Source of the DNA: a virus | Strand: one strand, 5' to 3' | Virus genome (UHGV): UHGV-0038492 | DNA: 64,000 bases | Shown: one piece after another, positions 17,675-53,774 of the stretch | How the letters are laid out: each line of letters begins with the position of its first letter | How positions within the stretch are numbered: the stretch's first letter is position 1 | Made by a program: the position numbers and the translations under genes | The notes under the pieces: generated by a model | What the model was told of the DNA's origin: nothing | The model's input: only the letters and a program-made list of their open reading frames with translations | The model's database searches: none

Positions 17675-17715
17675 CTCAGATATATATTACCTTAGTGAGA
17701 TTACACAGTAATCTC
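17671..17715 (+). promoter_or_regulatory. promoter-like motif TTTTCTCAGATATATATTACCTTAG followed by hairpin (copy 1)
   Basis: Near-identical 20-nt AT-rich element recurs at 39209 and 43638; hairpin GAGATTA-CACAG-TAATCTC follows; sits just after a terminator and ~55 nt before the HTH gene. Confidence 0.55.
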
Positions 17716-36497: not shown

Positions 36498-36501
36498 TTA
36501 T

Positions 36502-36524
36502 CAGTGAGGGGTTCCCCCTCACTG
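36502..36524 (+). terminator. hairpin after the long fibre gene (no T-run)
   Basis: CAGTGAGGGG-TT-CCCCTCACTG perfect palindrome directly after the stop codon. Confidence 0.4.
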
Positions 36525-36544
36525 ACTCACAAGTACGTTATAAG

Positions 36545-37336
36545 GTGGTTATTTTGTCTGTATCAGCGACTCCCGGATGGATTGGTTCTTCAGCAAAAGC
36601 TGAAGCTGGTAATGGTTGGATGTCTGGCGCGATGCACACACTCGGTGTGCCAGTTCCAGGCTGGATGTCGCAATTGGCGGGAAAATCAAAAGAGGCTCAG
36701 TATTCGATCGGGGCTAATCACAATTACAATAAAGATACGCTTATTAACTATTTACGTTCCATAGGCTCTACTGCTGTCGTTGTGACCATTACAGGGGATT
36801 TAGTGTCTTATAGTAGCGGGGTTCCTTGTTTAGAGTTCCCTAGCAATCTTCCAAATTCGTATATTACCCTCATCATCAATCCTGGGGTTACAGTATACGG
36901 CAGAGGAGGCAACGGCGGTTCTAACTCACCAGGCGGTGCAGGTGGAACCGCAATACAGAACGGAATAGGAAACAGACTGCGTATAACCAACCGTGGCGCT
37001 ATTGCCGGAGGCGGTGGCGGCGGTGGCGGCGGTAACAGGGGTAGACTAATATTTGGTGGTGGCGGTGGTCGCCCATTCGGTGCTGGTGGGTCTTCCTCTC
37101 ATATGAGTTCCGGTGCGGCTGCTGGTACTATTTCCGCTCCTGGTAGAGGATCTGTTGGTGAGGGGTCTCTTAGTGCATATACAGGCGGTTCGGGTGGTAA
37201 TGTCGGTGCTGGTGGAGGAAGATGTAATACTCATGGTAACGGTACAGAATATAACGGCGGAGCAGCTGGTGCAGCTGTTACTGGTAATGCGCCAAGATGG
37301 GACGCAGTAGGTGCAATATACGGTTCACGTGTTTAA
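36545..37336 (+). CDS. glycine-rich fibre-associated protein
   Basis: 263 aa; run of nine Gly encoded by (GGN)9 and overall Gly/Ala/Ser-rich C-terminal part; N-terminus homologous to next ORF; start may be GTG 36545 or TTG 36554. Confidence 0.65.
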   Translation: MVILSVSATPGWIGSSAKAEAGNGWMSGAMHTLGVPVPGWMSQLAGKSKEAQYSIGANHNYNKDTLINYLRSIGSTAVVVTITGDLVSYSSGVPCLEFPSNLPNSYITLIINPGVTVYGRGGNGGSNSPGGAGGTAIQNGIGNRLRITNRGAIAGGGGGGGGGNRGRLIFGGGGGRPFGAGGSSSHMSSGAAAGTISAPGRGSVGEGSLSAYTGGSGGNVGAGGGRCNTHGNGTEYNGGAAGAAVTGNAPRWDAVGAIYGSRV

Positions 37337-37352
37337 TTAAAAAGGAGGGTAG

Positions 37353-37865
37353 ATGGGGGTAGCGTCAGGATGGGTCGGATCTTCAGCTAAGAATGAAACT
37401 GGCCAACAATGGATGAGCGCTGCGGGTAGTAAATTAGGATTGGGTAGACCTTTTATGATGAGCCAAATGGTAGGCAAGTCCGTAGGTTGCAAAATAGCAA
37501 CAGCTTATTATAAAACGTCAAATACTGATAAAGTAGAGAACTGGGGTGCTGTCGGAGCCGATTGGCCGTTGGTAGATAAGAACAAAGGAACGCTTTCTGG
37601 TGCCTCGAACTGTGGCTTAGGACGTTTAGTGGGGATCGTACTTACGCAAGCTCACTACATTTCTGGTGTTCCACCCACTGCGGCTTTATACATCGCAGGA
37701 GGAAGGGCAAGTAATATTACAGTAACAGTTGGTGGTGTTTCGCAAGCATTTACTTACGATAGTGTTATTAACGGTTTTCACTATTATTGGCAAGGAACGC
37801 CTAGTTCGGCCTTTATAGCGGCAATGAAGAAGACGGGTGTTACACAAGATTTGAAAGTTAGCTAA
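37353..37865 (+). CDS. paralog of the Gly-rich protein N-terminal domain
   Basis: AAAGGAGGG RBS; MGVASGWVGSSAKNETGQQWMSAAG aligns with SVSATPGWIGSSAKAEAGNGWMSGA of the upstream ORF. Confidence 0.65.
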   Translation: MGVASGWVGSSAKNETGQQWMSAAGSKLGLGRPFMMSQMVGKSVGCKIATAYYKTSNTDKVENWGAVGADWPLVDKNKGTLSGASNCGLGRLVGIVLTQAHYISGVPPTAALYIAGGRASNITVTVGGVSQAFTYDSVINGFHYYWQGTPSSAFIAAMKKTGVTQDLKVS

Positions 37866-38023
37866 CTAATTGGGGTAAAACGATAACTAAAACTAGTAAA
37901 ATAAGAGTTCGTGAATTCGTAATTCAATAATTTTTTATAGAAAGATTGATTTATTAGAATCGGAGGGGTGCGATGTTTTTAGCCAACATTTTACGTCTCC
38001 CCAATCATAGGAGGTAACCATAC

Positions 38024-38536
38024 GTGGAACAATTCACGCCAGATTTGTCGTTAACTTCACTTAACATGGTTATTTCACTGGTTAACCATGACCTCCAGCT
38101 TGACTTGCAAGAGAACGAGGTTGAAGTCAGCGACGTAAAGACCAGTAACGAAATGGATCGTGACACCACTGCTGTTGTAAAGATAAAACGTCCCGGTAAC
38201 AGAACGTTACAAATCTATTACAACCGTTTAACCGCAGAACGTTGGTTAAACCAGCAACCTATTCTGGTGCAAGTAACTGGAGAGGGGTTTAACACACACG
38301 ATTTAATCGATGCGATTAACGCAGCCTGTGGTAGTAACCTGCAACCCGAAGATCTTCAGGACGATTCATTTACAGTAGGAAAAGACGCTGTAACGTTACA
38401 GGTATCACCTAACTCCCTAAGTTATAAAGGCCAATTCTCTGTTTTGGTTTTTGGTAACGGCGAAGAGGCCGCAGTAACAAAAGATGACAACCTAATCGTT
38501 ACCGCAGATAATCGCGTCTTAACCTTTGGAGGTTAA
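38024..38536 (+). CDS. fibre-associated small protein, family member 2
   Basis: GTG start after AGGAGG; homologous to ORF 27860; precedes a fibre gene. Confidence 0.65.
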   Translation: MEQFTPDLSLTSLNMVISLVNHDLQLDLQENEVEVSDVKTSNEMDRDTTAVVKIKRPGNRTLQIYYNRLTAERWLNQQPILVQVTGEGFNTHDLIDAINAACGSNLQPEDLQDDSFTVGKDAVTLQVSPNSLSYKGQFSVLVFGNGEEAAVTKDDNLIVTADNRVLTFGG

Positions 38537-38538
38537 CA

Positions 38539-39159
38539 GTGGCTGAACTGGTAGGAAAGGTACGCATTCACGAGCTACCGTCACTTTCAGAAGACATTAC
38601 TGGTGTGGTGGTGTTAGCGTCTAAGGAACAAACCGAATACCAACTCCCGATTGAGAATTTAGGGGGTGGTGAGGTTACAGTGAGTCCGTCAGCGAATAAC
38701 ATCCTTAAGTCTAACAGCGATGGACTGTTTGTTGATGGCGCACATCCTATTGTACCGAAAATGGATGCAAAAACCTTATCGGGAAATATGGTGGTAGAAA
38801 AAACGCTGACAGGTGGTGCGGTAATCTGCAAAACAACGGTTGACGTTAATAATAGGCTGGGGATTTCGCAATTATCTGGGGTGTCAATTTATAGCCAGTG
38901 CCTGCTGGAAAATAAATTGGTTTACCTGGCAGAAGACGGCAGTATTATTGATGCGTACTTCTACATTAGTAATACAAAGAACACGGCCAGTACAATAACC
39001 CACACCATTCGGGTTGTCTTAGCGAAAGTACCTTCTAAAGTTGTCGATATCACCGATTTATCTGAAACTGAGGTGCAGTATCAGGATGCTAATTTGCCTG
39101 TTAAGATCGTTATTAAGCATCTTACAGGGACAACACTTTCCCAGAACGGAATGAAATAA
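38539..39159 (+). CDS. short tail-fibre-like protein with conserved N-terminal anchor motif
   Basis: GTG start after GGAGG; N-terminus MAELVGKVRIHELPSLSEDITGVVVLASKEQTEYQL homologous to ORFs 28389 and 31938; terminator downstream. Confidence 0.65.
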   Translation: MAELVGKVRIHELPSLSEDITGVVVLASKEQTEYQLPIENLGGGEVTVSPSANNILKSNSDGLFVDGAHPIVPKMDAKTLSGNMVVEKTLTGGAVICKTTVDVNNRLGISQLSGVSIYSQCLLENKLVYLAEDGSIIDAYFYISNTKNTASTITHTIRVVLAKVPSKVVDITDLSETEVQYQDANLPVKIVIKHLTGTTLSQNGMK

Positions 39160-39163
39160 GTTA

Positions 39164-39210
39164 TAGGTAGTAGGGGCTAAGCCCCTACTACCTTTCTTTT
39201 TTTTTATTTT
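39164..39210 (+). terminator. intrinsic terminator
   Basis: GTAGTAGGGGC-TAA-GCCCCTACTAC then T-run; ends the fibre module. Confidence 0.75.
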
Positions 39211-39258
39211 TTCTCAGATATATATTACCTAGAGGAGAGCGAAATTTACATTCGCTCT
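39209..39258 (+). promoter_or_regulatory. promoter-like motif TTTTCTCAGATATATATTACCTAG followed by hairpin (copy 2)
   Basis: Identical core to copy 1; hairpin AGAGCGAA...TTCGCTCT; sits after a terminator and ~50 nt before ORF 39286. Confidence 0.55.
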
Positions 39259-39285: not shown

Positions 39286-40137
39286 ATGTATCACCCGTAT
39301 TATCTCCCGCACATTCTAGCAAATAGGGACCCTGATTACTACTACGAACAAACAAAAGGATCTTTTAATCGGCTCTACATTCGCGAATTTAATACCGATG
39401 AAATGACGGACGACCAGTATCTGGAGTATCTAAAAGACCTTTACGGTTTTTCAAAATCGAATAAAGGTGACTTTGGACGTTCCGCAGTCATTAGGGTTGG
39501 TGAATATCGACATTTGGCTAAGCCTGTTACGTATCCTATTGTTACACGCGCCTATACATCGGATAGGCAATATATTGCTGAACTAAAATTTCCTTTACGG
39601 ATAGACGGGCCCCAAATTAGCGCTATAGAAGTAGAGATTCAACCAATTGCTGAAGACTATATTGAAGACTACTTCAAGAAAGCTAAAGACGTACTCGAGG
39701 AGGGTTTAAGCTACTCTGAAGAAGGAACGATTTGTCTTCTCTCGTTACTCTCGAAGACTTATGTCACAGCAAATTTCCGTATCTCCGATTCCAGTAACTA
39801 CAATACACTTACCCCCTCTAAAACAAAACCTGTTTATTGGGACGATCGGTTAGTCGACAGACAACGCTGGCTTACTATCTTAGATAAAGTAAAATTCGAA
39901 CCCCCTAAACACACCGAAGACGATTTTATTTTATTGCACAACTTTGAACCAATTTATATTCCGACGCATTTTGATCAAGCCTTACGTCATCGGTTGAAGT
40001 ATGTGTTGGAATTACGGTACGGAAAGATAAACGGACTAACCTGTTCCGGTGAATTGGGTGAAGAAGAACGCGAGAAGATAAAAATCGTGTTTGATAAGTT
40101 GGTTGAAGATTACATTAAGAAGGAAGGACAAATATGA
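39286..40137 (+). CDS. hypothetical protein (first gene after promoter-like motif)
   Basis: AAAGGAGG RBS; 283 aa. Confidence 0.65.
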   Translation: MYHPYYLPHILANRDPDYYYEQTKGSFNRLYIREFNTDEMTDDQYLEYLKDLYGFSKSNKGDFGRSAVIRVGEYRHLAKPVTYPIVTRAYTSDRQYIAELKFPLRIDGPQISAIEVEIQPIAEDYIEDYFKKAKDVLEEGLSYSEEGTICLLSLLSKTYVTANFRISDSSNYNTLTPSKTKPVYWDDRLVDRQRWLTILDKVKFEPPKHTEDDFILLHNFEPIYIPTHFDQALRHRLKYVLELRYGKINGLTCSGELGEEEREKIKIVFDKLVEDYIKKEGQI

Positions 40138-40577
40138 AACCAAATACTACTAATGGCATTATGCTACTTTGTGATTCTGAAACGTTAGCAAACCGTATTC
40201 GTGGTTTGATGGAAGTACGTTGGAAGCAAAAGGTTCGCGTGGACTATGCTGCACCGTTTGTTCACGTTACTTGGTTACCAGAAGCTAACGATTTCAAAGA
40301 AAATATCACCACGAAAAGAATTAAAAATTGGTTAATGGCAATCATTAACAAACAGATTACCGTTATCAATTTCCAGTTGTTCGGTAGTAAAGAAGAACAT
40401 GAAACCTTAAAACGCTGTTTAAGGGGATTGGATCTTGCCTTTTCTGTTCGTGGAAACTGTTACACAGCGTTCTTCATCGGTTCTCTTGAGTTATTTCAGG
40501 GAACATTAAACATTCAACTAAAAGAAGATTACGGGATTGTAAATAAGATTGATTTCGAATTCCCAGCAATGATTTAA
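40134..40577 (+). CDS. hypothetical protein
   Basis: ATGA overlap; 147 aa. Confidence 0.6.
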   Translation: MKPNTTNGIMLLCDSETLANRIRGLMEVRWKQKVRVDYAAPFVHVTWLPEANDFKENITTKRIKNWLMAIINKQITVINFQLFGSKEEHETLKRCLRGLDLAFSVRGNCYTAFFIGSLELFQGTLNIQLKEDYGIVNKIDFEFPAMI

Positions 40578-40588
40578 GGAGTAGTAAC

Positions 40589-41431
40589 ATGTTTCAGTTC
40601 GAACTAACCGAAGAAGAAAAGGTTATCAACAAGTTTAAAATTTCCCCTATCCCTACTGAAGAACAAATTAAGGAAATCGCTGAGCTACAAAACACGTACA
40701 CGTTTTACTATAAAGTTAAATCAGAAGCGTTTAACATTTTCTGGGTAGAAGGCGAGGTCGATTTCCCTAACAAGCTCATTAGTGCGGTTATGGATATTTT
40801 AGTACGGCCTGTTGAGACGCCTAAAGATCCAGAAATTCCGGATCAAATGACTTGTAGGCTAAAAGACAAGCCAACTGCGAAAGACGTCGCTTACTTCACA
40901 GACGAGATTCTACTTACCCCAAAACAAGCAGGCAAAGTTGAACCAATAATAGACCTTTTTTTCAGTGACGAATTCACTTATGTGGCTGAAGACAACAAGC
41001 TAAAAGTGAGCTATGAGAGTGCTTGTTGTCACTCTCTTTTAAAAGATCTATTGGAAGACATAGAGGATGAAAGAATTCTGCTATTTACCGTTGAAAATAT
41101 TACCGAACTCGATGCTGATGTATTTATCCACGACGTGGATGATGAAATTGGACGTTTTGTAATGGCAATTTGTCAACAAAAATATCTTGAAGGTAACTTG
41201 CATCTCTTGGTCAAAAACGAACCACGGGTTCTTAAAGTTTTGAAGTCCCATGTACGGAAAATTAAGAGAAATAATGAATTATATAAACGTGTTTTCGAGA
41301 AATACGAAAAGGAAGTCAGACAACGTTTTTCACGCCATTGTTCCGGCTGGTTCGAAAATCACGGTGTGGAACTCGCCCAGCTGTTTGATCAGTTTTATAA
41401 TGAGATGAGGAAGATTCAAGATCTTAAATAA
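40589..41431 (+). CDS. hypothetical protein
   Basis: AAGGAG RBS; 280 aa. Confidence 0.65.
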   Translation: MFQFELTEEEKVINKFKISPIPTEEQIKEIAELQNTYTFYYKVKSEAFNIFWVEGEVDFPNKLISAVMDILVRPVETPKDPEIPDQMTCRLKDKPTAKDVAYFTDEILLTPKQAGKVEPIIDLFFSDEFTYVAEDNKLKVSYESACCHSLLKDLLEDIEDERILLFTVENITELDADVFIHDVDDEIGRFVMAICQQKYLEGNLHLLVKNEPRVLKVLKSHVRKIKRNNELYKRVFEKYEKEVRQRFSRHCSGWFENHGVELAQLFDQFYNEMRKIQDLK

Positions 41432-41465
41432 AGGGTTGAAACCCACTTTCGATAATTATTAAACA

Positions 41466-41487
41466 GGGGAATTTACCCCCCCCCTCC
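41466..41487 (+). other. GGGGA...C9 homopolymer hairpin
   Basis: GGGGAATTTACCCCCCCCC about 30 nt before ATG 41518. Confidence 0.5.
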
Positions 41488-41517
41488 ACATAGAGTAAAT
41501 CCCTAAAGGAGCATTAA

Positions 41518-42033
41518 ATGTCTGTAACAATCAACATGAATCTTTATACCAAACGTGAACGTCAAATCTTGGCTAATCAGCCAGGCGTTACTACTATCGA
41601 CGGTAAACCTATCGACCCATTAAAAGTCGTTGTCGCACACAACTGTTTCGAGAAAGACTGGGACATCATGTATTTCCGTTGCCGTTCTGTCGCAAACGCA
41701 CTTACCCAGCTCTCGAATTATCATCCTGGTCCAGTATTAAAAGACTGGGTTTGGTTAGTCCCTAAAACACCTTCAGCGATTGAGTATCCGTCGGGTATGG
41801 TCTATATTCGTCCTGTCGCTTATCCAGAACGTTTAAAAGAATATCTGGAGGTTATCTGGGACCGACCTCGTAAAGAGCTGGTGACGATTATCCGTTTACT
41901 TCAAATGTGCGATATCCCCAATGTTTCGAATCTGAAACTTACGTCTCGCGATGTTAACCAGGCTTACTGGGAACTGGAGTGGACTGAAATGAAATTCGAA
42001 AACACTAACCGCATTTTCTTGCACCGGGGGTAA
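41518..42033 (+). CDS. hypothetical protein
   Basis: AAAGGAG RBS; 171 aa. Confidence 0.65.
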   Translation: MSVTINMNLYTKRERQILANQPGVTTIDGKPIDPLKVVVAHNCFEKDWDIMYFRCRSVANALTQLSNYHPGPVLKDWVWLVPKTPSAIEYPSGMVYIRPVAYPERLKEYLEVIWDRPRKELVTIIRLLQMCDIPNVSNLKLTSRDVNQAYWELEWTEMKFENTNRIFLHRG

Positions 42034-42035
42034 AA

Positions 42036-42317
42036 ATGTTAGATTGGTTGTTGGGCTTAATTAACTCACGTCAACAGGAGCTTTATAAAGAAAACACGCG
42101 GTTACGGCAGCAGCTTAGTAACAATCGTCAAACCAAACGACAATTAATTCGGATGGTAAAACAACAGGCGCGCTGTATACGCGATATCGATTATCAGTAT
42201 CACCGTCTGAATACCTTAGACCCAACAACAAAAGCTTTAGGTAGTACGATTGGACACGCACGTAAAGTCAGTCACGATGCGTTAGTTCGAATCGATACAG
42301 TCGAAGAGAAACTGTGA
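42036..42317 (+). CDS. small coiled-coil protein
   Basis: 93 aa, Gln/Arg-rich helical; hairpin downstream. Confidence 0.55.
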   Translation: MLDWLLGLINSRQQELYKENTRLRQQLSNNRQTKRQLIRMVKQQARCIRDIDYQYHRLNTLDPTTKALGSTIGHARKVSHDALVRIDTVEEKL

Positions 42318-42321
42318 TTAG

Positions 42322-42348
42322 CTCTCCCTCGGGATTACCGAGGGAGAT
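42322..42348 (+). terminator. hairpin (no T-run)
   Basis: CTCTCCCTCGG-GATTA-CCGAGGGAGA. Confidence 0.35.
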
Positions 42349-42360
42349 AAGGCGATTTAC

Positions 42361-42750
42361 ATGATGCGTTTATCTTACATTAAAAGACGTTTGTTACTAA
42401 AAGCTCAACTGTATGCTAACGGGAAAGTTAAAAACTGGCTATGCGGTGAAAGGGTACAACGTATCGTTAGTGAGGGCGACTGGTATACAGAAATCGTGGT
42501 TTCACCAAACGGTGAGCTTATAAACGTTACTATTCGTGACGTTTTAGTTAAGATTGGCAGGGCAGGTGGCCTGCTGTTTGAATCGGAAACTACAAAAGTC
42601 GTTGCTAAACAATTGAAAGAAGGTCGGGTTATATTCAATGTCACCGCCCAGAAATATTACGACCATTTATTCGAATGTCAACGAGCTTTGGACAGAATGA
42701 CCCGTGAGATGCGAAGAATGCACATCACGGAGATCACTATAGGGGTTTAA
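42361..42750 (+). CDS. hypothetical protein
   Basis: 129-aa ORF. Confidence 0.6.
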   Translation: MMRLSYIKRRLLLKAQLYANGKVKNWLCGERVQRIVSEGDWYTEIVVSPNGELINVTIRDVLVKIGRAGGLLFESETTKVVAKQLKEGRVIFNVTAQKYYDHLFECQRALDRMTREMRRMHITEITIGV

Positions 42751-43061
42751 TGATGGAAAGTAAAATCACGAACACAACGACACCTGAGAACATTGTCAAC
42801 TACATTCTCAGTGGCGGGTTATTAGAAGACAACAAAGAAACGTGCGATAAACTCGTTTCTCAACTACTGCCGATTCGTTCAGAATACTGCGAAGTCGTTA
42901 TCCTGGGTTCTGAGTATTGCGTACGTTCCTACTGTCGTCGTTTCGAAGCCTTACGTGTTCCACGTACGTTAGGTGGCGTGATACTCTTAGTCTCTAACTT
43001 TCACAATGCACACGTTCGTGTTGCAACCTGGATTGCTAACGGTGGTGACAATGGTTTTTAA
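42750..43061 (+). CDS. hypothetical protein
   Basis: 103 aa; ATG overlaps upstream stop. Confidence 0.55.
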   Translation: MMESKITNTTTPENIVNYILSGGLLEDNKETCDKLVSQLLPIRSEYCEVVILGSEYCVRSYCRRFEALRVPRTLGGVILLVSNFHNAHVRVATWIANGGDNGF

Positions 43062-43359
43062 ATTGTTAGGTTTCGGAAAATGCAAAGAGTGCGCAAAGCA
43101 CGAAGAATATATCAAGTTATTAGAAGAAACGGTTGAAACGCAAAAAGAACTTATCTCTGAATACCGCGCGAAAACCGGTTCAGTGGAATATCTGACCATC
43201 CTTGTTTGTGCTATTGCTGAATTGGGTTGTGAGGGAAAATTACCTAAAGAAGAGATATTAAAATTATTAAAAGAAAAAACAGAGTTCTACCGTAAAGAAA
43301 TTGATGATTATAAACGTGAAGTTATAAGAGCGAATTGGGAGGTTATTAATGAAGCGTGA
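43051..43359 (+). CDS. hypothetical protein
   Basis: ATG at 43051 overlapping upstream gene end; 102 aa. Confidence 0.55.
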   Translation: MVFKLLGFGKCKECAKHEEYIKLLEETVETQKELISEYRAKTGSVEYLTILVCAIAELGCEGKLPKEEILKLLKEKTEFYRKEIDDYKREVIRANWEVINEA

Positions 43360-43630
43360 AACAGTTGTATTTCGTAGCAACGGTGATGTGGTTTTGTATC
43401 GTGGTAAGAAACGTATTCGTACGTTAGAATACCGAGAAGCAAAACGTTTTGTTGAAGAGTGTGCATGGTTAATGCATTACGAAGGGAACTATCGAGCTAT
43501 CTTAGAAGCACCGCGTTTAGAACGTGCGGTTGCACAGATGGCAATAGGTAATCCTAAGAACTGTTACCTGGCACGTAAGCCAAAATACCTACAGCGGCTT
43601 TCGTTAGGCAGCTTTATTGCTGGATTTTAA
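43349..43630 (+). CDS. hypothetical protein
   Basis: 93 aa; overlaps upstream gene end. Confidence 0.55.
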   Translation: MKRETVVFRSNGDVVLYRGKKRIRTLEYREAKRFVEECAWLMHYEGNYRAILEAPRLERAVAQMAIGNPKNCYLARKPKYLQRLSLGSFIAGF

Positions 43631-43637
43631 TAAAAAT

Positions 43638-43682
43638 AATTTCAGATATATATTACCTAGGTGAGAGTTCAGCTACTCTCAC
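43638..43682 (+). promoter_or_regulatory. promoter-like motif ATTTCAGATATATATTACCTAG followed by hairpin (copy 3)
   Basis: Identical 18-nt core; hairpin GTGAGAG...CTCTCAC; ~50 nt before ORF 43712. Confidence 0.55.
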
Positions 43683-43711
43683 TTAACTAAACCATTTTAG
43701 GAGCATATACC

Positions 43712-44206
43712 ATGAACTTCACTAGACTTGATTACACTAACGAATTAGTTGACAAAGAAAAATACAAATTCACCGTTGATTTGGGTTACGGATTACTGGA
43801 CGTAGAAAAAGATGTTCTGCACAAAGAATTCCGTGAGCAGTTCGGTGCTTTGTTCTGCGCAGGTTTCCGCAGAAACACTATTGATATCGGCTATAGCGCA
43901 ACAGCGTATACCGACGAAGAAATGTTTAAGCTGGTAACACAGATTGTCGGAACGCGTGGAGCCAAACGACTCAACTATTCCAATGAGCTTGTTTCGAAAG
44001 AACATTACAAGTTCACCGTTAGACTACCTGTTCACCTCACAGAAGAAGATAAGAACATCCTCTATAAAGCTCTTCAAACCGAATTCGGTAAAACGCTCAA
44101 AGTAGGGTTCCGTAGTCGTAGTATCGACATCGGGATTAGTGTAGACGTATGCAGTGACGATGACCTTTACGAACTAGTTTCGGAAGTTATCGGAAAACAT
44201 CTTTAA
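43712..44206 (+). CDS. hypothetical protein built from two tandem ~78-aa repeats
   Basis: Two halves align (YTNELVDKEKYKFTVDLGYGLL...FRRNTIDIGYS versus YSNELVSKEHYKFTVRLPVHL...FRSRSIDIGIS); preceded by promoter-like motif. Confidence 0.65.
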   Translation: MNFTRLDYTNELVDKEKYKFTVDLGYGLLDVEKDVLHKEFREQFGALFCAGFRRNTIDIGYSATAYTDEEMFKLVTQIVGTRGAKRLNYSNELVSKEHYKFTVRLPVHLTEEDKNILYKALQTEFGKTLKVGFRSRSIDIGISVDVCSDDDLYELVSEVIGKHL

Positions 44207-44250
44207 CGTAAATTAACACTTCGACTTGTAAATCTAAAAGGAAAAATAAA

Positions 44251-45042
44251 ATGGCTACTTTAACTATTGCTAATACTCTTACTCCTCGTAAAATGAAACG
44301 TCTTACGACTTTTATCTCTCGCTGCACACCTAGCGTCAAATTGGAAACGACCTCTGACAAAATCACGTTTTGGACTTATAGTGACGTAGAACTTGAAACT
44401 GTGAAAGGGTTTGTTAATGGGCTAGTTGAAAATACCGCATCATCGCTCGTTATTAGCTTCACTAGCGAAAATAGCGAGATGAACGAAGCAACAATTTCGG
44501 ATGCAATCTATTACGCGACTGGCAATAATTTTGATACCGCCGACAGACTTAATCTTTCTAATAACCTTTGTAAAATCGACGACAAGACTTACATCCTATA
44601 TTTTAATAGTCCGTTCCCACAAATCGGAGGTTTTAAACATTATCTTTCAATGAAACCTATCTTGGGTATAGAAGTTTTCTCTACGGATCTTGAAGACAAT
44701 GTACAGCTAAACCGTATTCGTTATCGCGGTAAACGTCCAACCGAAACAGATTCTGAATACGGTGCTTGTGCTGAATATATTCTGGTTCATAAAGATCGCT
44801 TCGCTTACTACAACCAAGACGATATTGAACGTCTTGTAGAAGCCGTCAATTTATACACTCGTGATTTTGCATTCCGATTGGTTTATAACACTTATCCGAA
44901 TGGTGTAACGGCTTTCTATATCCCTCCCTACCTTTTCGACAAGGTTTATTGTATTCTGTCTAAAGAACTGGAAAAAATTAAACCGGTTTTCGTGGGCGAA
45001 GACGCTATGGCTTATATCAGGAGTGGTGCTAATGTCCTCTAA
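44251..45042 (+). CDS. hypothetical protein
   Basis: 263-aa ORF. Confidence 0.65.
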   Translation: MATLTIANTLTPRKMKRLTTFISRCTPSVKLETTSDKITFWTYSDVELETVKGFVNGLVENTASSLVISFTSENSEMNEATISDAIYYATGNNFDTADRLNLSNNLCKIDDKTYILYFNSPFPQIGGFKHYLSMKPILGIEVFSTDLEDNVQLNRIRYRGKRPTETDSEYGACAEYILVHKDRFAYYNQDDIERLVEAVNLYTRDFAFRLVYNTYPNGVTAFYIPPYLFDKVYCILSKELEKIKPVFVGEDAMAYIRSGANVL

Positions 45043-45463
45043 ACTTAAAGATGAATTGCGTGATTACATTCGTAAATACCCAGCCAGTATTCCGGTACTG
45101 GCTTCACTCTCTTTATCGGGTATGGACCTTAATACCTTAACGGTAGAAAAATTCCACGAAGTGGTAAAATCGTCGTATCAAATTGTTACCGATATGTCAG
45201 TGCGGAAACGTGCTGACTACCCAGACGGTGATTTCGGTACAGAGATGTTCACAGACTACGCAGTTGCGTATCTGATGGGACGTCACTTTATCGATAAGCT
45301 CAATACAGCTGTAGAAGGAGAAACCGTTACGGAAATTGTCAATGCTTGGCAACAACGTATTGTGAGTGACGCTTACTGTCGTCAAGCCTTAAAGAAAATG
45401 TCGGCGGTAGCATTAACCAACGACCAACGTGCTTTAGAGTTCCTTAAGCACAATTACGAATAA
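45032..45463 (+). CDS. hypothetical protein, paralog A
   Basis: GGAG RBS; paralogous to ORF 46727 (shared N-terminal L-K-D-x-(L/I)-R-(D/N)-Y-I-R-K/N motif). Confidence 0.6.
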   Translation: MSSKLKDELRDYIRKYPASIPVLASLSLSGMDLNTLTVEKFHEVVKSSYQIVTDMSVRKRADYPDGDFGTEMFTDYAVAYLMGRHFIDKLNTAVEGETVTEIVNAWQQRIVSDAYCRQALKKMSAVALTNDQRALEFLKHNYE

Positions 45464-45484
45464 TTTACCAAAAGGAAAAGTACC

Positions 45485-46657
45485 ATGTTTAATATTGAGA
45501 TTACACCGCTCGTTAAAACTGAAATCCGTCCGGTTCCTGAAGCACAGTTACTCGATCAACTTTATCGTATATTCCTGGATAAAGGTGTGCATTTCCGTGT
45601 AGAACAGGTCAATGACGAAAGCATCGTGTTCTACTGGACTCACAGCAACGATTATCTTTGCGATACTATCGCGAAAGAAATTGGTGAGTTGCTCAACCCA
45701 GCAGCCACGAACGCCAAGGTAGAAACGACCGAGACTGAACAACCGAAAGTCGAAGAACAGCAGTGGCCTGAAACCAGCGCCGACAACCCGCTCGTCTATC
45801 GGTATGGTGCCGAAACGAATGAGAAAATTAAAGAAACATTAGAGGCTCTCTATCCTGATTATTTAACCATCAGTCAACAATGCGACGTGTTAGTTATCTG
45901 GATGAATGATTTCGAACCCAAGCTCATTAAAGCTATTCGCATCACCGTTGCACTGATCGTCAAAGACGCCGTTCGCCTTATTTCGTTTGAAGGTATCGGT
46001 CGACGTGACGCGGATGATTTCATGCGTGATGTCGTTCACGAACACAAGGAGAAAATTCTTCGGTCTAATTATGTTGGTGACACTCTAATTGTGCTTGTTG
46101 ATAATGATCCCGTTATTATTAATCAGCTGAACATCCGTATGCGTAAGTTAACAAAGAAAATTTTTCTTAAAGGGGAGCAATCGCTTGAAGAGTCCAAAGT
46201 GTCTAAAGTCTTTACTTACACTGGTCCAGATGCCAAAGCGATTAACGATACTTTGGCAGCTTTCTATTCTAGCAAAGTAGAGACTAAACTCGAGGGCGAA
46301 GAACTCACCATTAAATGGAAATGGTGGGACATTGCTCTTGAAGAAGAAATTCATAGTCTTATTAAAGAGATTGTTGACAATCGTCTACGTCTTCTAACAA
46401 TCACTACTATCGGTGGAGAAGATGCCGATGCGTTTATAAGCGGGGTTCTTCGCGCGTATCCTGAGAAAGTCCGTCAATGGACTTACAATGACGATACACT
46501 TATCATCCTGCTCAACTATGAACCTGGCCTTATTGGGAAATTGAAGGATCGTCTACGCGATCTGTGGTACAAACGATTTCTTAAGGATGGGTCGAAAGAG
46601 CTCATTAAACGATTGTTTTCTGATTGCAACTGTCCTATATGTCAGAAGCATCGCTAA
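45485..46657 (+). CDS. hypothetical protein
   Basis: 390-aa ORF; C-terminal CNCPICQKH. Confidence 0.65.
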   Translation: MFNIEITPLVKTEIRPVPEAQLLDQLYRIFLDKGVHFRVEQVNDESIVFYWTHSNDYLCDTIAKEIGELLNPAATNAKVETTETEQPKVEEQQWPETSADNPLVYRYGAETNEKIKETLEALYPDYLTISQQCDVLVIWMNDFEPKLIKAIRITVALIVKDAVRLISFEGIGRRDADDFMRDVVHEHKEKILRSNYVGDTLIVLVDNDPVIINQLNIRMRKLTKKIFLKGEQSLEESKVSKVFTYTGPDAKAINDTLAAFYSSKVETKLEGEELTIKWKWWDIALEEEIHSLIKEIVDNRLRLLTITTIGGEDADAFISGVLRAYPEKVRQWTYNDDTLIILLNYEPGLIGKLKDRLRDLWYKRFLKDGSKELIKRLFSDCNCPICQKHR

Positions 46658-46674
46658 TTAACTAAATTCGTACA

Positions 46675-46710
46675 AGGGGTGGTTTACCACCCCTCTATTA
46701 TTGTATTTAC
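46675..46710 (+). terminator. intrinsic terminator (weak T tract)
   Basis: AGGGGTGG-TTTA-CCACCCCT. Confidence 0.5.
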
Positions 46711-46726
46711 CTAAAGGAGTATTAAA

Positions 46727-47158
46727 ATGTTTTTCGTATTAAAAGATGATATTCGTAACTACATTCGTAACAATCCGATTGCTCTAGGCGTTTTAGCAGG
46801 TTTCTGTCGTCCAAATACTGACTTCGATTTAGTTAAGTTAGAAGAATATCAAGAAATTGTGAATACTACCTACCTGCACATCTGTAGCTGGGGTAAACGT
46901 CCTCGTGAAGAGTACCCTGTGGGTGAGTTAGGTGACACCATGCACCGTGACCAGAATCTGATGCACGAATTCGTTGAATACACACTGGAAAATCTTAACT
47001 ATCCGCTCCTGGTCGACACTGTACCAGAAATGGTTGACGAATGGTTAAAACGTGTTTATAGCGATCCTACCGCCAACAAGTTACTGAGCCAGATGTCACA
47101 AACTTCTCGTGACATCGACACTCGTACGCTGATGTACTTAGCACATAATGTTCGCTAA
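46727..47158 (+). CDS. hypothetical protein, paralog B
   Basis: AAAGGAG RBS; paralog of ORF 45032; terminator downstream. Confidence 0.6.
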   Translation: MFFVLKDDIRNYIRNNPIALGVLAGFCRPNTDFDLVKLEEYQEIVNTTYLHICSWGKRPREEYPVGELGDTMHRDQNLMHEFVEYTLENLNYPLLVDTVPEMVDEWLKRVYSDPTANKLLSQMSQTSRDIDTRTLMYLAHNVR

Positions 47159-47165
47159 CCTCTTT

Positions 47166-47220
47166 CCGCTATAGGCTTCGGTCTATAGCGGAATTAATTT
47201 TCTTCCCCTTTTCTTTTTTT
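47166..47220 (+). terminator. intrinsic terminator
   Basis: CCGCTATAG...CTATAGCGG hairpin then T-rich tract. Confidence 0.6.
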
Positions 47221-47325
47221 GTTATTTTGACACCACTTTACTTACACCCTACCCGACTATTCCTATGCTGGCTGAGGGATGTAAAACGACCTCTTAAACC
47301 TTTTTACTTACTGTGAGTTAACGCG

Positions 47326-48174
47326 ATGTCTCTTACGTCAAAACAGAAACTGCTAAAACTCATCAACACTGAAAACAATATTATTCCACCGTTGACTTTC
47401 AGTGATGTTGAAATCGGGGAACCTACCGGTACTGGGGTTGATACCCAGGTGGTTCTGACCTCTAAACTTAAAGGCGATGAGTCTACTACTTTAACAGTGA
47501 CTTACCACCGTCGTAACTTACCTGACTACCTAACCGGTGAGTTGGTATTCGGTAACGACAGTGTGGTAACCGCATCAGATTTGCTTAATGCGATTAACGC
47601 AAAATACAACCTAAATATTTTACCCTCGGATATCGTTGACGCAAAAGTTGAAGGCGAAACCCATCAGCTTACCGCTAACGAGAAATCTTACGAGTGGTGC
47701 GGTGTAGTAACGCTTACGCTGCGCGATCCTATTGACCTGACTGAACTGTTACCGGTTACTCAATTAGAGAATCTGGTAGAGTATCCGTCCACGAAGAAAG
47801 GTAACGCGGCGGTTTATTCTCACCCGATTGATTTCACCGCAGAAAAAGATTACCTTGACCCGATTACTATCAACGACGCTGTAGACTTGGTAGAATTAGC
47901 TACTAAACTGGATAGCGTCGTTGACGAGAAATGGGTAAGCGTACCTAAGAACGCGGCTAACAACCTGTACGGAGCGAAGATTATTTACGATGGTCCAACC
48001 GCAGGTTACGAAGGCGCAAATACGAAGTTCACTCGTGTGTTGGTGCTAACACTCAGCCCGCTGTGTTCTAACCTGACCGGTAACCTGTTAATTCACTTTA
48101 ACGGGACCGATCGTCCGAAGTCGAAGATTGAATTAGCACAGACTAATCCGGTCTTACCGGGATTCTTAGATTAA
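47326..48174 (+). CDS. hypothetical protein, fibre-associated small-protein family (extended)
   Basis: 282 aa; contains SDLLNAINAKYNLNILPSDI matching the family motif. Confidence 0.65.
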   Translation: MSLTSKQKLLKLINTENNIIPPLTFSDVEIGEPTGTGVDTQVVLTSKLKGDESTTLTVTYHRRNLPDYLTGELVFGNDSVVTASDLLNAINAKYNLNILPSDIVDAKVEGETHQLTANEKSYEWCGVVTLTLRDPIDLTELLPVTQLENLVEYPSTKKGNAAVYSHPIDFTAEKDYLDPITINDAVDLVELATKLDSVVDEKWVSVPKNAANNLYGAKIIYDGPTAGYEGANTKFTRVLVLTLSPLCSNLTGNLLIHFNGTDRPKSKIELAQTNPVLPGFLD

Positions 48175-48187
48175 GAGGATTACAGTA

Positions 48188-48667
48188 ATGGCCAATCAAG
48201 AAACTATCTTCGACCTTATTAAAAAGGCTAACCCGGACGCTGAGTTCGACACCACCAAAGTCACACTGGGTGAACCGGTTGTGACCACCGGTACTTACAA
48301 TACCGAAATTACGGTTGCGTCGATTAAGAATCTCGGTTATGTTAATAAGCAAACGTTCCAGTATAACCGCATTGACGCAGGTTTGTATTTCCTGAACGTA
48401 TTACCGAAATTGTTGGTAGAATCTGCAACGACTACCGCTGACTTACTGCCCGTCATTAACGAGCAGTACAGCCTAACCCTTACAGAAGACGACGTGTGGG
48501 TAGAACAGGTTGGTGAGTTACCGTTAGACGGTAGCGCAATCGAACACGGTATTTTCTTCCGTCCTGAGTGTCTGACCTGGGTTGGTGGTTTTACAGTGCG
48601 TGTTGCGCGTAAACCGGCTGACGCCACACCGCCAAAGACGGCGTCTCGCGCTAAAAAGAAAAAATAA
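48188..48667 (+). CDS. hypothetical protein, same family
   Basis: 159 aa; ADLLPVINEQYSLTLTEDDV motif; Lys-rich C-terminus; terminator downstream. Confidence 0.6.
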   Translation: MANQETIFDLIKKANPDAEFDTTKVTLGEPVVTTGTYNTEITVASIKNLGYVNKQTFQYNRIDAGLYFLNVLPKLLVESATTTADLLPVINEQYSLTLTEDDVWVEQVGELPLDGSAIEHGIFFRPECLTWVGGFTVRVARKPADATPPKTASRAKKKK

Positions 48668-53226: not shown

Positions 53227-53774
53227 TCATCGTCTCCTTTAATCAATCCTAATTCGATTAACAGTTCAAAATCGATATGACGGAATCTTGTATCAAAATC
53301 CGATTCCCAATCGATGCGGATACCCTGGCACTCTTCTGATGTTAGCTCGGGAAAAATTACGGTATTAAATTTCTCACGCTCATCGTAAAACCCATCAATC
53401 GGTGAGTTCGGGTTACGCGTTGCGAAAATAGTAATACCAGGGAAAGATAATGCTAACACAGTGATAGATTCTGCGCTGGGCTCACTTAAAGAGCGGCGTA
53501 GAAACGCAATTTTGTGGCGTGGGAAGTCCAATACGCGTTCTTCAAACCCTGGATTACGTTTTTCGATTTCCGCTACCGACAGGTCAGTAAGTTCGGTGCA
53601 ATACATTGGGATGATTACAGTCACGCCGTGGCGAATCAGTAAACGTTTTACGTCATCGGTAAAATCTTCGCCGTTAATCATCACGTAACAACCGAACAGC
53701 TTACTGTTTTCCAGAAACTTATCCAGAAGTCGAATTCTACGCTTCGTAATATTGTTGATCAGAATTGGTTTCAT
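53202..53774 (-). CDS. hypothetical protein co-operonic with radical-SAM enzymes
   Basis: 190-aa ORF overlapping both neighbours. Confidence 0.6.
   Translation of the reverse strand: MKPILINNITKRRIRLLDKFLENSKLFGCYVMINGEDFTDDVKRLLIRHGVTVIIPMYCTELTDLSVAEIEKRNPGFEERVLDFPRHKIAFLRRSLSEPSAESITVLALSFPGITIFATRNPNSPIDGFYDEREKFNTVIFPELTSEECQGIRIDWESDFDTRFRHIDFELLIELGLIKGDDECLLLVKA

What the first reader, a model, noticed from the sequence alone, without database searches (positions are those of the whole stretch)
39286..47158. 8 kb block of 14 small ORFan genes behind promoter-like motifs, wedged between fibre and lysis modules
ORFs 39286-47158 have no recognisable motifs, are tightly coupled (ATGA overlaps), sit behind two copies of the TATATTAC element and carry internal duplications and paralog pairs. 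This is the signature of an early host-takeover or anti-defence region, which in large phages is rich in uncharacterised inhibitors. Its position between structural modules is unusual.
Basis: inference. Interest (0 to 1): 0.55.

Follow-up and report, generated by a model that had tools for sequence, protein, structure and literature searches.

The report
Early-gene island of a jumbo phage
This 8 kb stretch is a real cluster of 14 small genes of unknown function in a giant Salmonella/E. coli phage, probably switched on first after infection from two copies of a known early promoter; some of its genes are swapped or lost between close relatives, so it is a plausible but unproven place to look for host-takeover or anti-immunity proteins.

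Summary
The window comes from an unisolated ~225 kb relative of Salmonella phage SPN3US, a phiKZ-like nucleus-forming jumbo phage. It is colinear with SPN3US 75-150 kb. All 14 ORFs look like real genes: dN/dS against close relatives is 0-0.6.

The block is organised as terminator, promoter P1, leader hairpin, o1-o9, promoter P2, leader hairpin, o10-o14, terminator. Both promoters carry TCAGATATATATTACCTAG, whose core is the published phiKZ early promoter consensus read by the injected virion RNA polymerase.

The block is the syntenic counterpart of SPN3US gp125-137. None of those 13 proteins was detected in SPN3US virions, although both flanking modules were. Its position is therefore conserved, not unusual.

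- **Shared genes:** six (o4, o5, o7, o9, o12, o14) have SPN3US-group homologues.
- **Clade-restricted genes:** the other eight are found only in this phage's own clade.
- **Variable slots:** o1, o3, o6, o8, o11, o13 and o14 are lost, replaced or highly divergent among relatives whose other genes are 90-100% identical.

No function could be assigned. Pfam, PHROGs, PADLOC and PDB gave nothing, and two AlphaFold models had no informative structural match.

Early timing rests on motif identity and is inferred. The host-takeover or anti-defence role is plausible but untested. This is a new member of a known kind.

The parts
39165..39203 (+). Intrinsic terminator that closes the upstream tail-fibre module (13-bp stem with 8 G-C pairs, followed by a T-run)
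   Evidence: sequence read; conserved in L004 and L005
39214..39232 (+). Early promoter P1, TCAGATATATATTACCTAG, preceded by an A/T tract
   Evidence: 3 copies of the 19-mer against 0.01 expected. Its core is the phiKZ early consensus. An orthologous variant promoter follows the gp124 terminator in SPN3US and Stratton.
39236..39258 (+). Leader stem-loop 1, AGAGCGAAATTTACATTCGCTCT, starting 7 nt after the TAC of the promoter
   Evidence: A compensatory C-G to T-A change is seen in L005, L131-L135 and L108.
39286..40137 (+). o1, 283 aa. Accessory gene restricted to this clade.
   Evidence: Absent from L004, L005 and L135, with different deletion scars in L004 and L005, which implies independent losses. 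It is 95-97% identical in L131, L132 and L134 and 49% in L133. No Pfam or PHROG hit.
40134..40577 (+). o2, 147 aa. Clade-restricted and present in every relative examined.
   Evidence: 80-99% identity in 7 relatives; dN/dS 0.11-0.24
40589..41431 (+). o3, 280 aa. Variable slot. Its C-terminal domain (aa 162-227) is a paralogue of domains R3/R5 of o13.
   Evidence: Replaced by an unrelated 175-aa gene in L004 and L134; 70-88% identical elsewhere.
41518..42033 (+). o4, 171 aa. Conserved core gene, homologue of SPN3US gp127 and Stratton gp143 (phrog_8180).
42036..42317 (+). o5, 93 aa, basic, with weak below-threshold Pfam matches to coiled-coil families. Its N-terminus is homologous to SPN3US gp128.
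42324..42346 (+). Intercistronic stem-loop, CTCCCTCGG-GATTA-CCGAGGGAG, with no T-run
   Evidence: sequence read
42361..42750 (+). o6, 129 aa. Variable-allele slot.
   Evidence: 86-98% identity in five relatives but only 40-43% in L131 and L133
42750..43061 (+). o7, 103 aa. Conserved core gene, homologue of SPN3US gp131 (phrog_9649).
43051..43359 (+). o8, about 102 aa. Hypervariable slot. The mechanical ORF starts at 43006, but the likely start is ATG 43051.
   Evidence: 35-49% identity in five relatives whose neighbouring genes are 93-100% identical. The start is inferred from the Shine-Dalgarno sequence and from PGAP gene calls.
43349..43630 (+). o9, 93 aa, basic. Its N-terminus is homologous to SPN3US gp133.
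   Evidence: 97-100% identity in relatives
43642..43660 (+). Early promoter P2, TCAGATATATATTACCTAG
   Evidence: The surrounding 36-47 nt are 93-100% identical to intergenic sites in SPN3US, Erwinia and other jumbo phages.
43661..43682 (+). Leader stem-loop 2, GTGAGAG-TTCAGCTA-CTCTCAC
   Evidence: The 40 nt after the promoter, which include this stem-loop, fold at -15.5 kcal/mol. Relatives keep the stem but vary the loop.
43712..44206 (+). o10, 164 aa. Internal tandem duplication of two 82-aa units. Clade-restricted and conserved.
   Evidence: z = 33; 93-99% identity in relatives
44251..45042 (+). o11, 263 aa. Cassette slot.
   Evidence: 99% identical in L131. Replaced by an unrelated 157-aa gene in L004, L005, L132 and L135, and by a 254-aa protein only 23-24% identical in L133 and L134.
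45032..45463 (+). o12, about 143 aa. Paralogue of o14 (phrog_8484). The mechanical ORF starts at GTG 45023.
45485..46657 (+). o13, 390 aa. Five beta-alpha-beta-beta-alpha domains (R1-R5), with R2-R3 duplicated as R4-R5. Residues 91-160 are hypervariable. A conserved C-terminal CxCxxC motif is present.
   Evidence: Relatives L131 and L132 have a 253-255 aa form.
46675..46694 (+). Stem-loop with a weak T tail between o13 and o14. It could be a partial terminator or an RNA-stabilising element.
46727..47158 (+). o14, 143 aa. Homologue of SPN3US gp135 and Stratton gp153 (phrog_8484).
   Evidence: In SPN3US this gene has its own copy of the early promoter. Identity is only 57-73% in L131 and L132.
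47164..47193 (+). Intrinsic terminator that closes the block
47264..47267 (+). TATG within a conserved TATGCTGGC...ACGACCTC element upstream of the first head-paralogue gene. It resembles the phiKZ late promoter and lies outside the block.
   Evidence: consensus from PMC7598289
17676..17694 (+). Third copy of the early promoter (2 mismatches), again following a terminator and followed by a hairpin, upstream of the SPN3US gp101 homologue

Best explanation
The block consists of two tandem early transcription units of an SPN3US-like jumbo phage of the phiKZ / nucleus-forming (Chimalliviridae) type.

**Proposed sequence of events (inferred)**
1. After DNA injection, the virion-packaged multisubunit RNA polymerase initiates at P1 (39214) and P2 (43642). 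Each promoter is an A/T tract followed by TCAGATATATATTAC.
2. Transcription starts a few nucleotides downstream, so each mRNA begins with a stable stem-loop. This probably protects the 5' end from host RNases or is part of the initiation signal.
3. Unit 1 encodes o1-o9 and unit 2 encodes o10-o14. Strong terminators at 39165 and 47164 insulate the block from the tail-fibre genes upstream and the late head genes downstream.
4. The products are soluble proteins that are not part of the virion.

**Composition (shown)**
- A conserved backbone is present in all relatives: o2, o4, o5, o7, o9, o10, o12.
- It is interspersed with slots that are deleted, replaced or exchanged for old divergent alleles by recombination: o1, o3, o6, o8, o11, o13, o14.

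**Proposed role (inferred)**
The proteins act in the host cytoplasm during the first minutes of infection. The variable ones most likely bind host targets or face host immune sensors.

**Status of the claims**
- Shown here: real genes, the promoter-hairpin-terminator architecture, synteny with SPN3US, non-virion status of the SPN3US homologues, and gene flux.
- Inferred: early timing, the role of the hairpin, and the host-directed function.
For: **Promoter identity**
- The 19-mer occurs 3 times in the window against 0.01 expected.
- Its core TATATTAC equals the phiKZ early promoter consensus read by the virion polymerase.
- It is 93-100% conserved in SPN3US and Erwinia phages.
- SPN3US has 6 strict copies, all on the + strand and all upstream of genes whose products were not found in virions.
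- Variant copies in SPN3US lie upstream of the non-virion polymerase genes gp34/35 and directly after the gp124 terminator, at the position orthologous to P1.
- The window belongs to a phage with split RNA polymerases. Its first ORF is 82% identical to the C-terminus of SPN3US gp77, a non-virion polymerase beta fragment.

**Leader hairpin**
- In 49 unique promoter-like sites from related contigs, the downstream 32 nt have mean MFE -7.5 kcal/mol, z = -2.9 against shuffles, and 78% fold at -5 kcal/mol or better.
- In 68 chance sites the values are -3.1 kcal/mol, z = -0.4 and 16% (Mann-Whitney p = 8e-11).
- Stem sequences differ between sites while the position is kept.

**Insulation**
- Terminators flank the block.
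- A late-type TATG element precedes the next gene.

**Non-virion status**
- SPN3US gp125-137 are absent from the virion mass spectrometry list, while gp124 and gp138-155 are present.

**Real genes**
- dN/dS values are well below 1.

**Gene flux**
- The identity matrix across 7 relatives shows flanking structural genes at 89-100% while o6, o8, o11, o13 and o14 fall to 23-60% or are replaced.
- o1 was lost at least twice, with different deletion scars.
- The block is the lowest-GC 7.9 kb stretch of the window: 40.5% against 45.6%.

**Biological context**
- Early transcription occurs in the EPI vesicle, and host sensors (Juk, Avs5) target early proteins (PMC13282480).
Against: - No transcript, transcription start site or proteome time-course is available for this clade. 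The SPN3US time-course paper (PMC6384053) is not held.
- Only 6 strict promoter copies exist in SPN3US, so the statistical link to non-virion genes is weak.
- No protein resembles any known takeover or anti-defence factor.
- The two structure models gave only generic matches or none.
- The variability of o13 reflects old alleles shuffled by recombination. In the hypervariable domain dS is 1.0-1.5 in most pairwise comparisons and dN/dS is 0.3-0.6. This is not demonstrable positive selection.
- Absence from virions is also compatible with assembly factors.
Confidence: 0.65

Rival explanations
1. The function is the same early cluster, but the variable slots are not inhibitors. They are early proteins that host immune sensors recognise, and they diversify or are lost so that the phage escapes detection.
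For: - The review PMC13282480 reports that JukA senses early phage proteins at the EPI vesicle, and that Avs5 is activated by an early protein of unknown function.
- The observed pattern is loss (o1), replacement (o3, o11) and allele swapping (o6, o8, o13, o14). This is what escape from recognition would produce.
Against: - Loss alone would be the simplest escape, yet most slots remain occupied and under purifying selection (dN/dS 0.2-0.6). This implies that each allele has a function.
- No homology to JADA or to Juk targets could be tested.
Confidence: 0.2
2. The genes encode non-structural morphogenesis helpers (chaperones or assembly factors) for the neighbouring tail-fibre and head-paralogue modules, and they are expressed in the middle or late phase.
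For: - The block lies between a tail-fibre module and head genes.
- Assembly factors would also be absent from virions.
- The tail-fibre module upstream is itself swapped among relatives.
Against: - The block has its own terminator-bounded units behind the early-type promoter, whereas the adjacent head gene has a different, late-type TATG element.
- Block alleles do not co-vary with fibre type. L131 carries a different fibre, yet o1, o2, o4, o5, o7 and o9-o12 are 97-100% identical to the window.
- SPN3US keeps the block although it has no fibre module at that place.
Confidence: 0.1
3. The products are packaged or ejected virion proteins, such as internal head proteins, encoded next to structural genes.
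For: SPN3US-like heads carry many paralogous and ejected proteins encoded nearby, for example gp138-154.
Against: - None of the 13 SPN3US counterparts gp125-137 was detected in two independent virion preparations, although proteins with as few as 3-6 spectra were listed.
- There is no similarity to DUF7941 or to other virion PHROGs.
Confidence: 0.04

Closest known systems
phiKZ early operons driven by the virion RNA polymerase (early promoter consensus TATATTAC with a T/A-rich upstream tract)
   Same: - The core motif is identical, with an A/T-rich tract upstream.
- The promoter is intergenic, lies after a terminator, and heads operons of small hypothetical proteins.
- The phage has the same split multisubunit RNA polymerases.
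   Different: - The conserved element here is longer: TCAGATATATATTAC followed by yTAGGTGA.
- It is followed at a fixed distance by a stem-loop that the phiKZ and 201phi2-1 transcriptome papers I read do not describe.
- Far fewer copies exist: 6 strict copies in SPN3US against 28-32 in phiKZ.
- Timing has not been measured in this clade.
- No protein homology to phiKZ early genes was found by tblastn.
Salmonella phage SPN3US gp125-gp137, and the corresponding Erwinia phage Stratton gp142-gp154
   Same: - The genomic position is the same, between the gp124 tail protein and the DUF7941 head paralogues.
- The orientation is the same, and a promoter follows the gp124 terminator in each phage.
- Six homologous genes occur in the same order: gp127, gp128, gp131, gp133 and gp135 correspond to o4, o5, o7, o9 and o12/o14.
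   Different: - Eight of the 14 genes here have no counterpart in those phages.
- The gp135 family is duplicated here.
- The second promoter precedes o10 rather than the gp135 homologue.
- A tail-fibre module is inserted upstream, and the head-paralogue family downstream is cut from 17 genes to 2.
Hyperplastic regions of T4-like phages: clusters of small, early-expressed, non-essential ORFans that differ between close relatives (my own knowledge; Comeau et al. 2007, Virology)
   Same: - Small co-oriented genes lie behind early promoters.
- GC content is low.
- Presence/absence and replacement occur among otherwise near-identical genomes.
- Most functions are unknown.
   Different: - The polymerase and promoter system are different, and there is no sequence relationship.
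- Here a fixed backbone of conserved genes alternates with the variable slots.
Known jumbo-phage anti-defence proteins (Tad1 of phiKZ is the only one listed in the 2026 review)
   Same: They would be small soluble phage proteins that act early in infection.
   Different: - No similarity could be shown.
- Tad1 is reported to be injected, whereas the SPN3US counterparts of this block are not found in virions.

Membership tests
phiKZ-type early promoter read by the virion RNA polymerase | Conserved AT-rich element with a TATATTAC core and a T/A-rich tract upstream | tested here: met
   The 19-mer is identical at 39214 and 43642, and a third copy lies at 17676: 3 hits against 0.01 expected. Consensus taken from PMC7058600 and PMC7598289.
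phiKZ-type early promoter read by the virion RNA polymerase | The phage encodes split multisubunit virion and non-virion RNA polymerases | tested here: met
   The window is colinear with SPN3US 75-150 kb. ORF 33-317 is 82% identical to the C-terminus of SPN3US gp77, a non-virion polymerase beta fragment. The virion polymerase genes themselves lie outside the window.
phiKZ-type early promoter read by the virion RNA polymerase | The motif lies upstream of genes that must be early, such as the non-virion polymerase subunits | tested here: met
   In SPN3US the variant CAGATAGATATTAT lies 46 nt upstream of gp34, which with gp35 is annotated as an RNA polymerase beta/beta' subunit and is not among the virion polymerase subunits. 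This was tested in the relative, not in the window.
phiKZ-type early promoter read by the virion RNA polymerase | A transcription start about 6-10 nt downstream, with transcripts present in the first minutes and independent of the host RNA polymerase | not testable with these tools
   No transcript data were found for the SPN3US clade. PMC6384053 is not held.
Syntenic block SPN3US gp125-137 | Same flanking genes and same gene order | tested here: met
Syntenic block SPN3US gp125-137 | Products absent from purified virions | not tested
   Shown for SPN3US only (Table S4 of PMC5105663). No virion data exist for this phage.
Anti-defence or host-takeover gene island | Similarity of at least one product to a characterised inhibitor or takeover factor | tested here: not met
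   - No Pfam hit, and only unknown-function PHROGs.
- No PDB sequence hit.
- No dedicated anti-defence library was available.
Anti-defence or host-takeover gene island | Accessory character: presence/absence and allele replacement among close relatives | tested here: met
Anti-defence or host-takeover gene island | Demonstrated inhibition of a host process or defence system | not testable with these tools
   This requires experiments.
Phage-borne defence system (PADLOC families) | A match to a defence-system protein model | tested here: not met
   No hit for 13 of the 14 proteins. For o13 there is only a marginal match (E 0.0097, 14 bits) with no matched stretch passing the cut-off on its own.

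The most novel reading that the evidence does not exclude
The variable slots (o1, o3, o6, o8, o11, the hypervariable domain of o13, and o14) could form a recombining arsenal of early cytoplasmic binders. These would neutralise, or hide the phage from, host immune factors during the vulnerable interval before the phage nucleus is built. In this reading o13 is a modular array of small beta-alpha-beta-beta-alpha domains whose swappable second domain sets target specificity. Separately, the fixed-position 5' stem-loop may be an undescribed functional part of the early promoter or leader in this phage group.
Probability: 0.25. Interest if true: 0.7.

Novelty: new member of a known kind. Interest (0 to 1): 0.38.

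Why it matters
- **Open question it bears on.** Nucleus-forming jumbo phages resist DNA-targeting immunity, but they are exposed before the nucleus forms. A 2026 review lists only one anti-defence protein for all jumbo phages and asks what their many small genes do.
- **What this block offers.** It gives a defined, testable shortlist in an Enterobacteriaceae phage clade that is common in sequence data. Seven slots vary among near-identical genomes, and seven backbone genes are invariant.
- **The promoter-hairpin module.** It is compact and strongly conserved, and it could be used to predict early genes across SPN3US-like phages.
- **What it is not.** None of this is a new kind of system. It is the expected early accessory region of such a phage, characterised here in more detail.

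Tried and rejected
- **Chance ORFs or non-coding DNA:** rejected by dN/dS.
- **Family searches:** Pfam, PHROGs and PADLOC for all 14 proteins, and a PDB sequence search of the concatenated proteins, gave nothing functional.
- **o4 family reach:** a profile search of 1.84 billion representatives found only 24 relatives, and the distant ones carry no Pfam domain.
- the afdb50 fold library was not available.
- **Domain sharing within the block:** I tested whether o2, o10 and o11 share the o13 domain at the sequence level. They do not; only o3 does.
- **SPN3US and Stratton:** neither has the o13/o3 domain.
- **RNA genes:** Rfam and tRNA scans of the window found nothing.
- **Positive selection in the o13 hypervariable domain:** not supported, because dS is also raised.
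- **Membrane proteins or superinfection exclusion:** no transmembrane segments were found.
- **Sigma-70 promoters:** not enriched, 27 found against 26.4 expected.
- **SPN3US infection time-course proteome (PMC6384053):** could not be read.

Full report
**What the window is.** No phage in the GenBank phage collection is closely related to this window at the DNA level. At the protein level, however, the window is colinear with Salmonella phage SPN3US from about 75 to 150 kb. Core proteins are 45-84% identical. The first ORF (33-317) is 82% identical to the C-terminus of SPN3US gp77, which Thomas et al. describe as a fragment of the non-virion RNA polymerase beta subunit. The window therefore comes from an SPN3US-like member of the phiKZ-related, nucleus-forming jumbo phages.

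Many close relatives exist in metagenome and read-archive assemblies as contigs of about 222-230 kb. Two complete RefSeq assemblies contain the phage as a circular 'plasmid': E. coli 98232 (221,873 bp) and Enterobacter ludwigii (222,441 bp).

**Checking the observation.** Fourteen co-oriented ORFs occupy 39286-47158. They are real genes. Against two IMG/VR relatives (L004 at about 95% and L005 at about 89% nucleotide identity), dN/dS is 0.00-0.28 for o2, o4-o7, o9, o10, o12 and o14, and 0.28-0.58 for o3 and o13. o8 gave 0.19 against L004.

TATATTAC on its own is not significant: 5 hits against 2.5 expected. The full 19-mer TCAGATATATATTACCTAG is identical at 39214 and 43642 and recurs with two mismatches at 17676. 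That is 3 hits against 0.01 expected.

The internal duplications are real:
- The two halves of o10 align with a score of 180 against 25.6 +/- 4.7 for shuffles.
- In o13 the two-domain unit R2-R3 is repeated as R4-R5 (hhalign probability 96.5% and 98.9%).

The paralogue pairs are real: o12/o14 (E 3e-25) and the C-terminal domain of o3 with R3/R5 of o13. No Pfam family matches any of the 14.

Four corrections are needed:
- There is a single ATGA overlap, between o1 and o2. The other junctions are different overlaps or gaps of 2-86 nt.
- o8 probably starts at 43051 and o12 at 45032. This follows from the Shine-Dalgarno positions, from the o12/o14 N-terminal alignment, and from PGAP calls in the E. 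coli record.
- Six genes are not orphans in the strict sense (see the synteny section below).
- The downstream neighbours are two head-paralogue (DUF7941) genes. Only after them comes a GH108 + PG_binding_3 hydrolase.

**Anatomy.** The block runs as follows:
1. A strong intrinsic terminator at 39165-39203 ends the tail-fibre module.
2. An A/T tract and promoter P1 follow at 39214-39232.
3. A stem-loop lies at 39236-39258, and the Shine-Dalgarno sequence and start of o1 at 39286.
4. Genes o1-o9 are closely packed, with two intercistronic stem-loops.
5. After the stop of o9 come P2 (43642-43660), a second stem-loop (43661-43682), and o10 at 43712.
6. o10-o13 follow. A stem-loop with a weak T tail (46675-46694) precedes o14. 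A clear terminator at 47164-47193 closes the block.

The next gene, a DUF7941 head paralogue at 47326, is preceded by TATGCTGGC...ACGACCTC. That element is conserved upstream of the equivalent SPN3US gene. It contains the TATG that defines phiKZ late promoters (PMC7598289).

The block is the lowest-GC 7.9 kb stretch of the window: 40.5% against 45.6% for the rest. The accessory genes o1, o2, o3, o8 and o11 are lowest, at 36.5-39.8%.

**The promoter.** TATATTAC is listed as the phiKZ promoter consensus (PMC7058600 table 2). Reviews state that in every RNA-polymerase-encoding jumbo phage a conserved AT-rich motif centred near -10 marks the early promoters read by the virion polymerase. This was confirmed wherever transcripts were mapped (PMC7598289. 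PMC8244752).

The 36-47 nt around P2 are 93-100% identical to intergenic sites in SPN3US, Erwinia, Proteus and Escherichia jumbo phages, although nothing else in the block matches them at the DNA level.

In the complete SPN3US genome the strict element occurs six times. All six copies are on the + strand, each is followed by a hairpin, and they lie upstream of gp55, gp66, gp101, gp135, gp180 and gp249. None of those proteins is in the virion list.

Two-mismatch variants lie upstream of gp5 and upstream of gp34. gp34/35 are annotated as RNA polymerase beta/beta' subunits and are not among the virion polymerase subunits, so they are presumed early genes. In Stratton a two-mismatch variant, and in SPN3US a three-mismatch variant read directly from the sequence, lie immediately after the gp124 terminator. 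That is the position orthologous to P1. The window's third copy, at 17676, precedes the gp101 homologue exactly as in SPN3US.

I take this as good indirect evidence that P1 and P2 are early promoters. The timing itself is inferred. I found no transcript data for this clade, and the SPN3US infection time-course proteome is not held.

**The leader stem-loop.** All three copies in the window are followed within a few nucleotides by a stem-loop whose sequence differs between copies. I collected matches to TCAGATATATATTAC from IMG/VR and split them into two groups:
- **49 unique promoter-like sites** (downstream N4-RTGA). The 32 nt downstream have mean MFE -7.5 kcal/mol and z = -2.9 against shuffles, and 78% fold at -5 kcal/mol or better.
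- **68 chance sites.** The corresponding values are -3.1 kcal/mol, z = -0.4 and 16% (Mann-Whitney p = 8e-11).

The stem starts 0-6 nt after the TAC in 44 of the 49 promoter-like sites. Orthologous P1 leaders show a compensatory C-G to T-A change.

If the transcription start lies about 6-8 nt after the motif, as in phiKZ, these mRNAs begin with a 5'-terminal hairpin. The most economical reading is protection against 5'-end-dependent decay. A role in initiation cannot be excluded. The phiKZ and 201phi2-1 transcriptome papers I read do not mention such a hairpin.

**Synteny and virion status.** tblastn and phmmer place six genes in SPN3US and Erwinia phage Stratton, in the same order:

| Window gene | SPN3US | Stratton |
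|---|---|---|
| o4 | gp127 (45% identity) | gp143 (57%) |
| o5 | gp128 (N-terminus only) | |
| o7 | gp131 (48%) | |
| o9 | gp133 (N-terminus only) | |
| o12, o14 | gp135 | gp153 |

The SPN3US block gp125-137 sits between gp124 (a tail protein) and the 17-member head-paralogue family gp138-154. This is the same place as in the window. The position is therefore conserved rather than unusual, and the SPN3US authors note that splitting of functional modules is typical of these genomes.

In the published mass spectrometry of two SPN3US virion preparations, 83 proteins were found. They include gp123, gp124 and all of gp138-155, but none of gp125-137 (Table S4 of PMC5105663).

The other eight genes (o1-o3, o6, o8, o10, o11, o13) have no detectable relative outside the window's own clade.

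**Gene flux.** I compared the block in seven relatives (L004, L005, L131-L135).
- **Flanking structural genes** are 89-100% identical throughout.
- **Backbone genes:** o4, o5, o7, o9, o10 and o12 are 88-100% identical, and o2 is 80-99%.
- **o1** is absent from three relatives. L004 keeps remnants of both its ends, with the start codon mutated, whereas L005 keeps only the 3' remnant. This implies independent deletions. It is 49% identical in L133.
- **o3** is replaced by an unrelated 175-aa gene in two relatives.
- **o6** drops to 40-43% identity in two relatives.
- **o8** is 35-49% identical in five relatives.
- **o11** is replaced by an unrelated 157-aa gene in four relatives and by a protein only 23-24% identical in two.
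- **o13** ranges from 50 to 94% identity. In L131 and L132 it is only 253-255 aa long.
- **o14** drops to 57-73% identity in two relatives and is split in one.

The pattern is mosaic. L131 is 97-100% identical to the window in nine of the genes, but only 40-60% identical in o6, o8, o13 and o14.

The o13 family has 253 clusters at 90% identity. The o14 search found 12 and the o4 search 6. Variability in o13 is concentrated in residues 91-160. In that segment dS is also high in most pairwise comparisons (1.0-1.5, against 0.1-0.6 in the rest of the gene) and dN/dS is 0.3-0.6. The diversity therefore reflects old alleles exchanged by recombination, not demonstrable point-mutation positive selection.

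**The proteins themselves.** All 14 are predicted to be soluble, with no transmembrane segment. None matches PADLOC defence models beyond one marginal hit or any PDB sequence.

**Interpretation.**
- **Best supported (about 0.65):** the block is two early transcription units read by the injected virion polymerase. It is insulated by terminators and encodes soluble non-virion proteins. A conserved backbone alternates with slots that recombine or are lost.
- **Plausible but unproven (about 0.4):** the products act on the host in the first minutes, as takeover factors, as counter-defence, or as targets that evade sensors. This fits the biology summarised in PMC13282480. There, early transcription occurs in the EPI vesicle, the host sensors Juk and Avs5 target early proteins, and only one jumbo-phage anti-defence protein is known.
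- **Disfavoured rivals:** assembly helpers for the neighbouring structural modules, and packaged virion proteins. The promoter class, the lack of co-variation with fibre type, and the SPN3US virion data argue against them.

**Verdict.** The claim of an unusual position is wrong. This is a new, well-delimited member of a known kind: the early accessory region of a phiKZ-like phage. It has two modestly new details, a fixed-position leader hairpin and a backbone-plus-slots organisation. Interest is moderate.

Noticed in passing
whole window; L137 (NZ_CP173450.1); NZ_CP134650.1: This roughly 222-227 kb jumbo-phage clade has no close isolate in the GenBank phage collection. It does appear as circular 'plasmids' in complete RefSeq assemblies: E. 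coli 98232 from urine (221,873 bp) and Enterobacter ludwigii from a gull (222,441 bp). It also appears as contigs of about 224 kb in Salmonella and Shigella isolate assemblies. For a phage type regarded as strictly lytic, this suggests a carrier state, pseudolysogeny or culture contamination.
   Followed up: partly
window 31938-39159: A tail-fibre module sits between the gp124 homologue and the early block, where SPN3US has nothing. It comprises a 1519-aa fibre with an S74 chaperone domain, two T4-type gp38 adhesins, a DUF7941 paralogue and one more gene. The adhesin region is about 77-85% identical in DNA to the corresponding region of RB49/JSE-like T-even phages. Relatives L131 and L133 carry a different fibre (709 aa plus DUF4376) at the same site. 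This points to exchange of host-range cassettes across phage families.
   Followed up: partly
window 39236-39258, 43661-43682, 17696-17714; loci L006-L125: Every early-promoter copy is followed within 0-6 nt by a stem-loop whose sequence varies while its position is fixed. In 49 sites the mean MFE is -7.5 kcal/mol with z = -2.9. The phiKZ and 201phi2-1 transcriptome papers I read do not mention such a leader hairpin.
   Followed up: yes
window 47326-48667 compared with SPN3US 115-133 kb: The 17-member head-paralogue family of SPN3US (gp138-154, DUF7941) is represented here by only two adjacent genes, plus scattered copies at 38024, 51299 and 51943. This accounts for much of the smaller genome size.
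   Followed up: no
window 47264-47300; SPN3US about 115,330: TATGCTGGC...TAAAA..ACGACCTC is conserved upstream of the first DUF7941 gene in both phages. It contains the TATG of phiKZ late promoters and may be a late-promoter element for this clade.
   Followed up: no
window 39244, 41471, 42355, 45463, 46705: ATTTAC occurs within 70 nt upstream of the start codon in 7 of 75 genes in the window, and five of those seven are in the block (o1, o4, o6, o13, o14). It is often in or next to hairpin loops. Its meaning is unknown.
   Followed up: partly
window 45485-46657 (o13); L131 9162-9923; L132 9157-9924: Relatives carry a 253-255 aa form of o13. The family ends in an invariant CxCxxC motif (C381, C383, C386), which may bind a metal.
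   Followed up: partly
window 53737-55966 (- strand): Two radical-SAM genes, homologues of SPN3US gp163 and gp164, are 69-82% identical and are conserved in all relatives examined.
   Followed up: no
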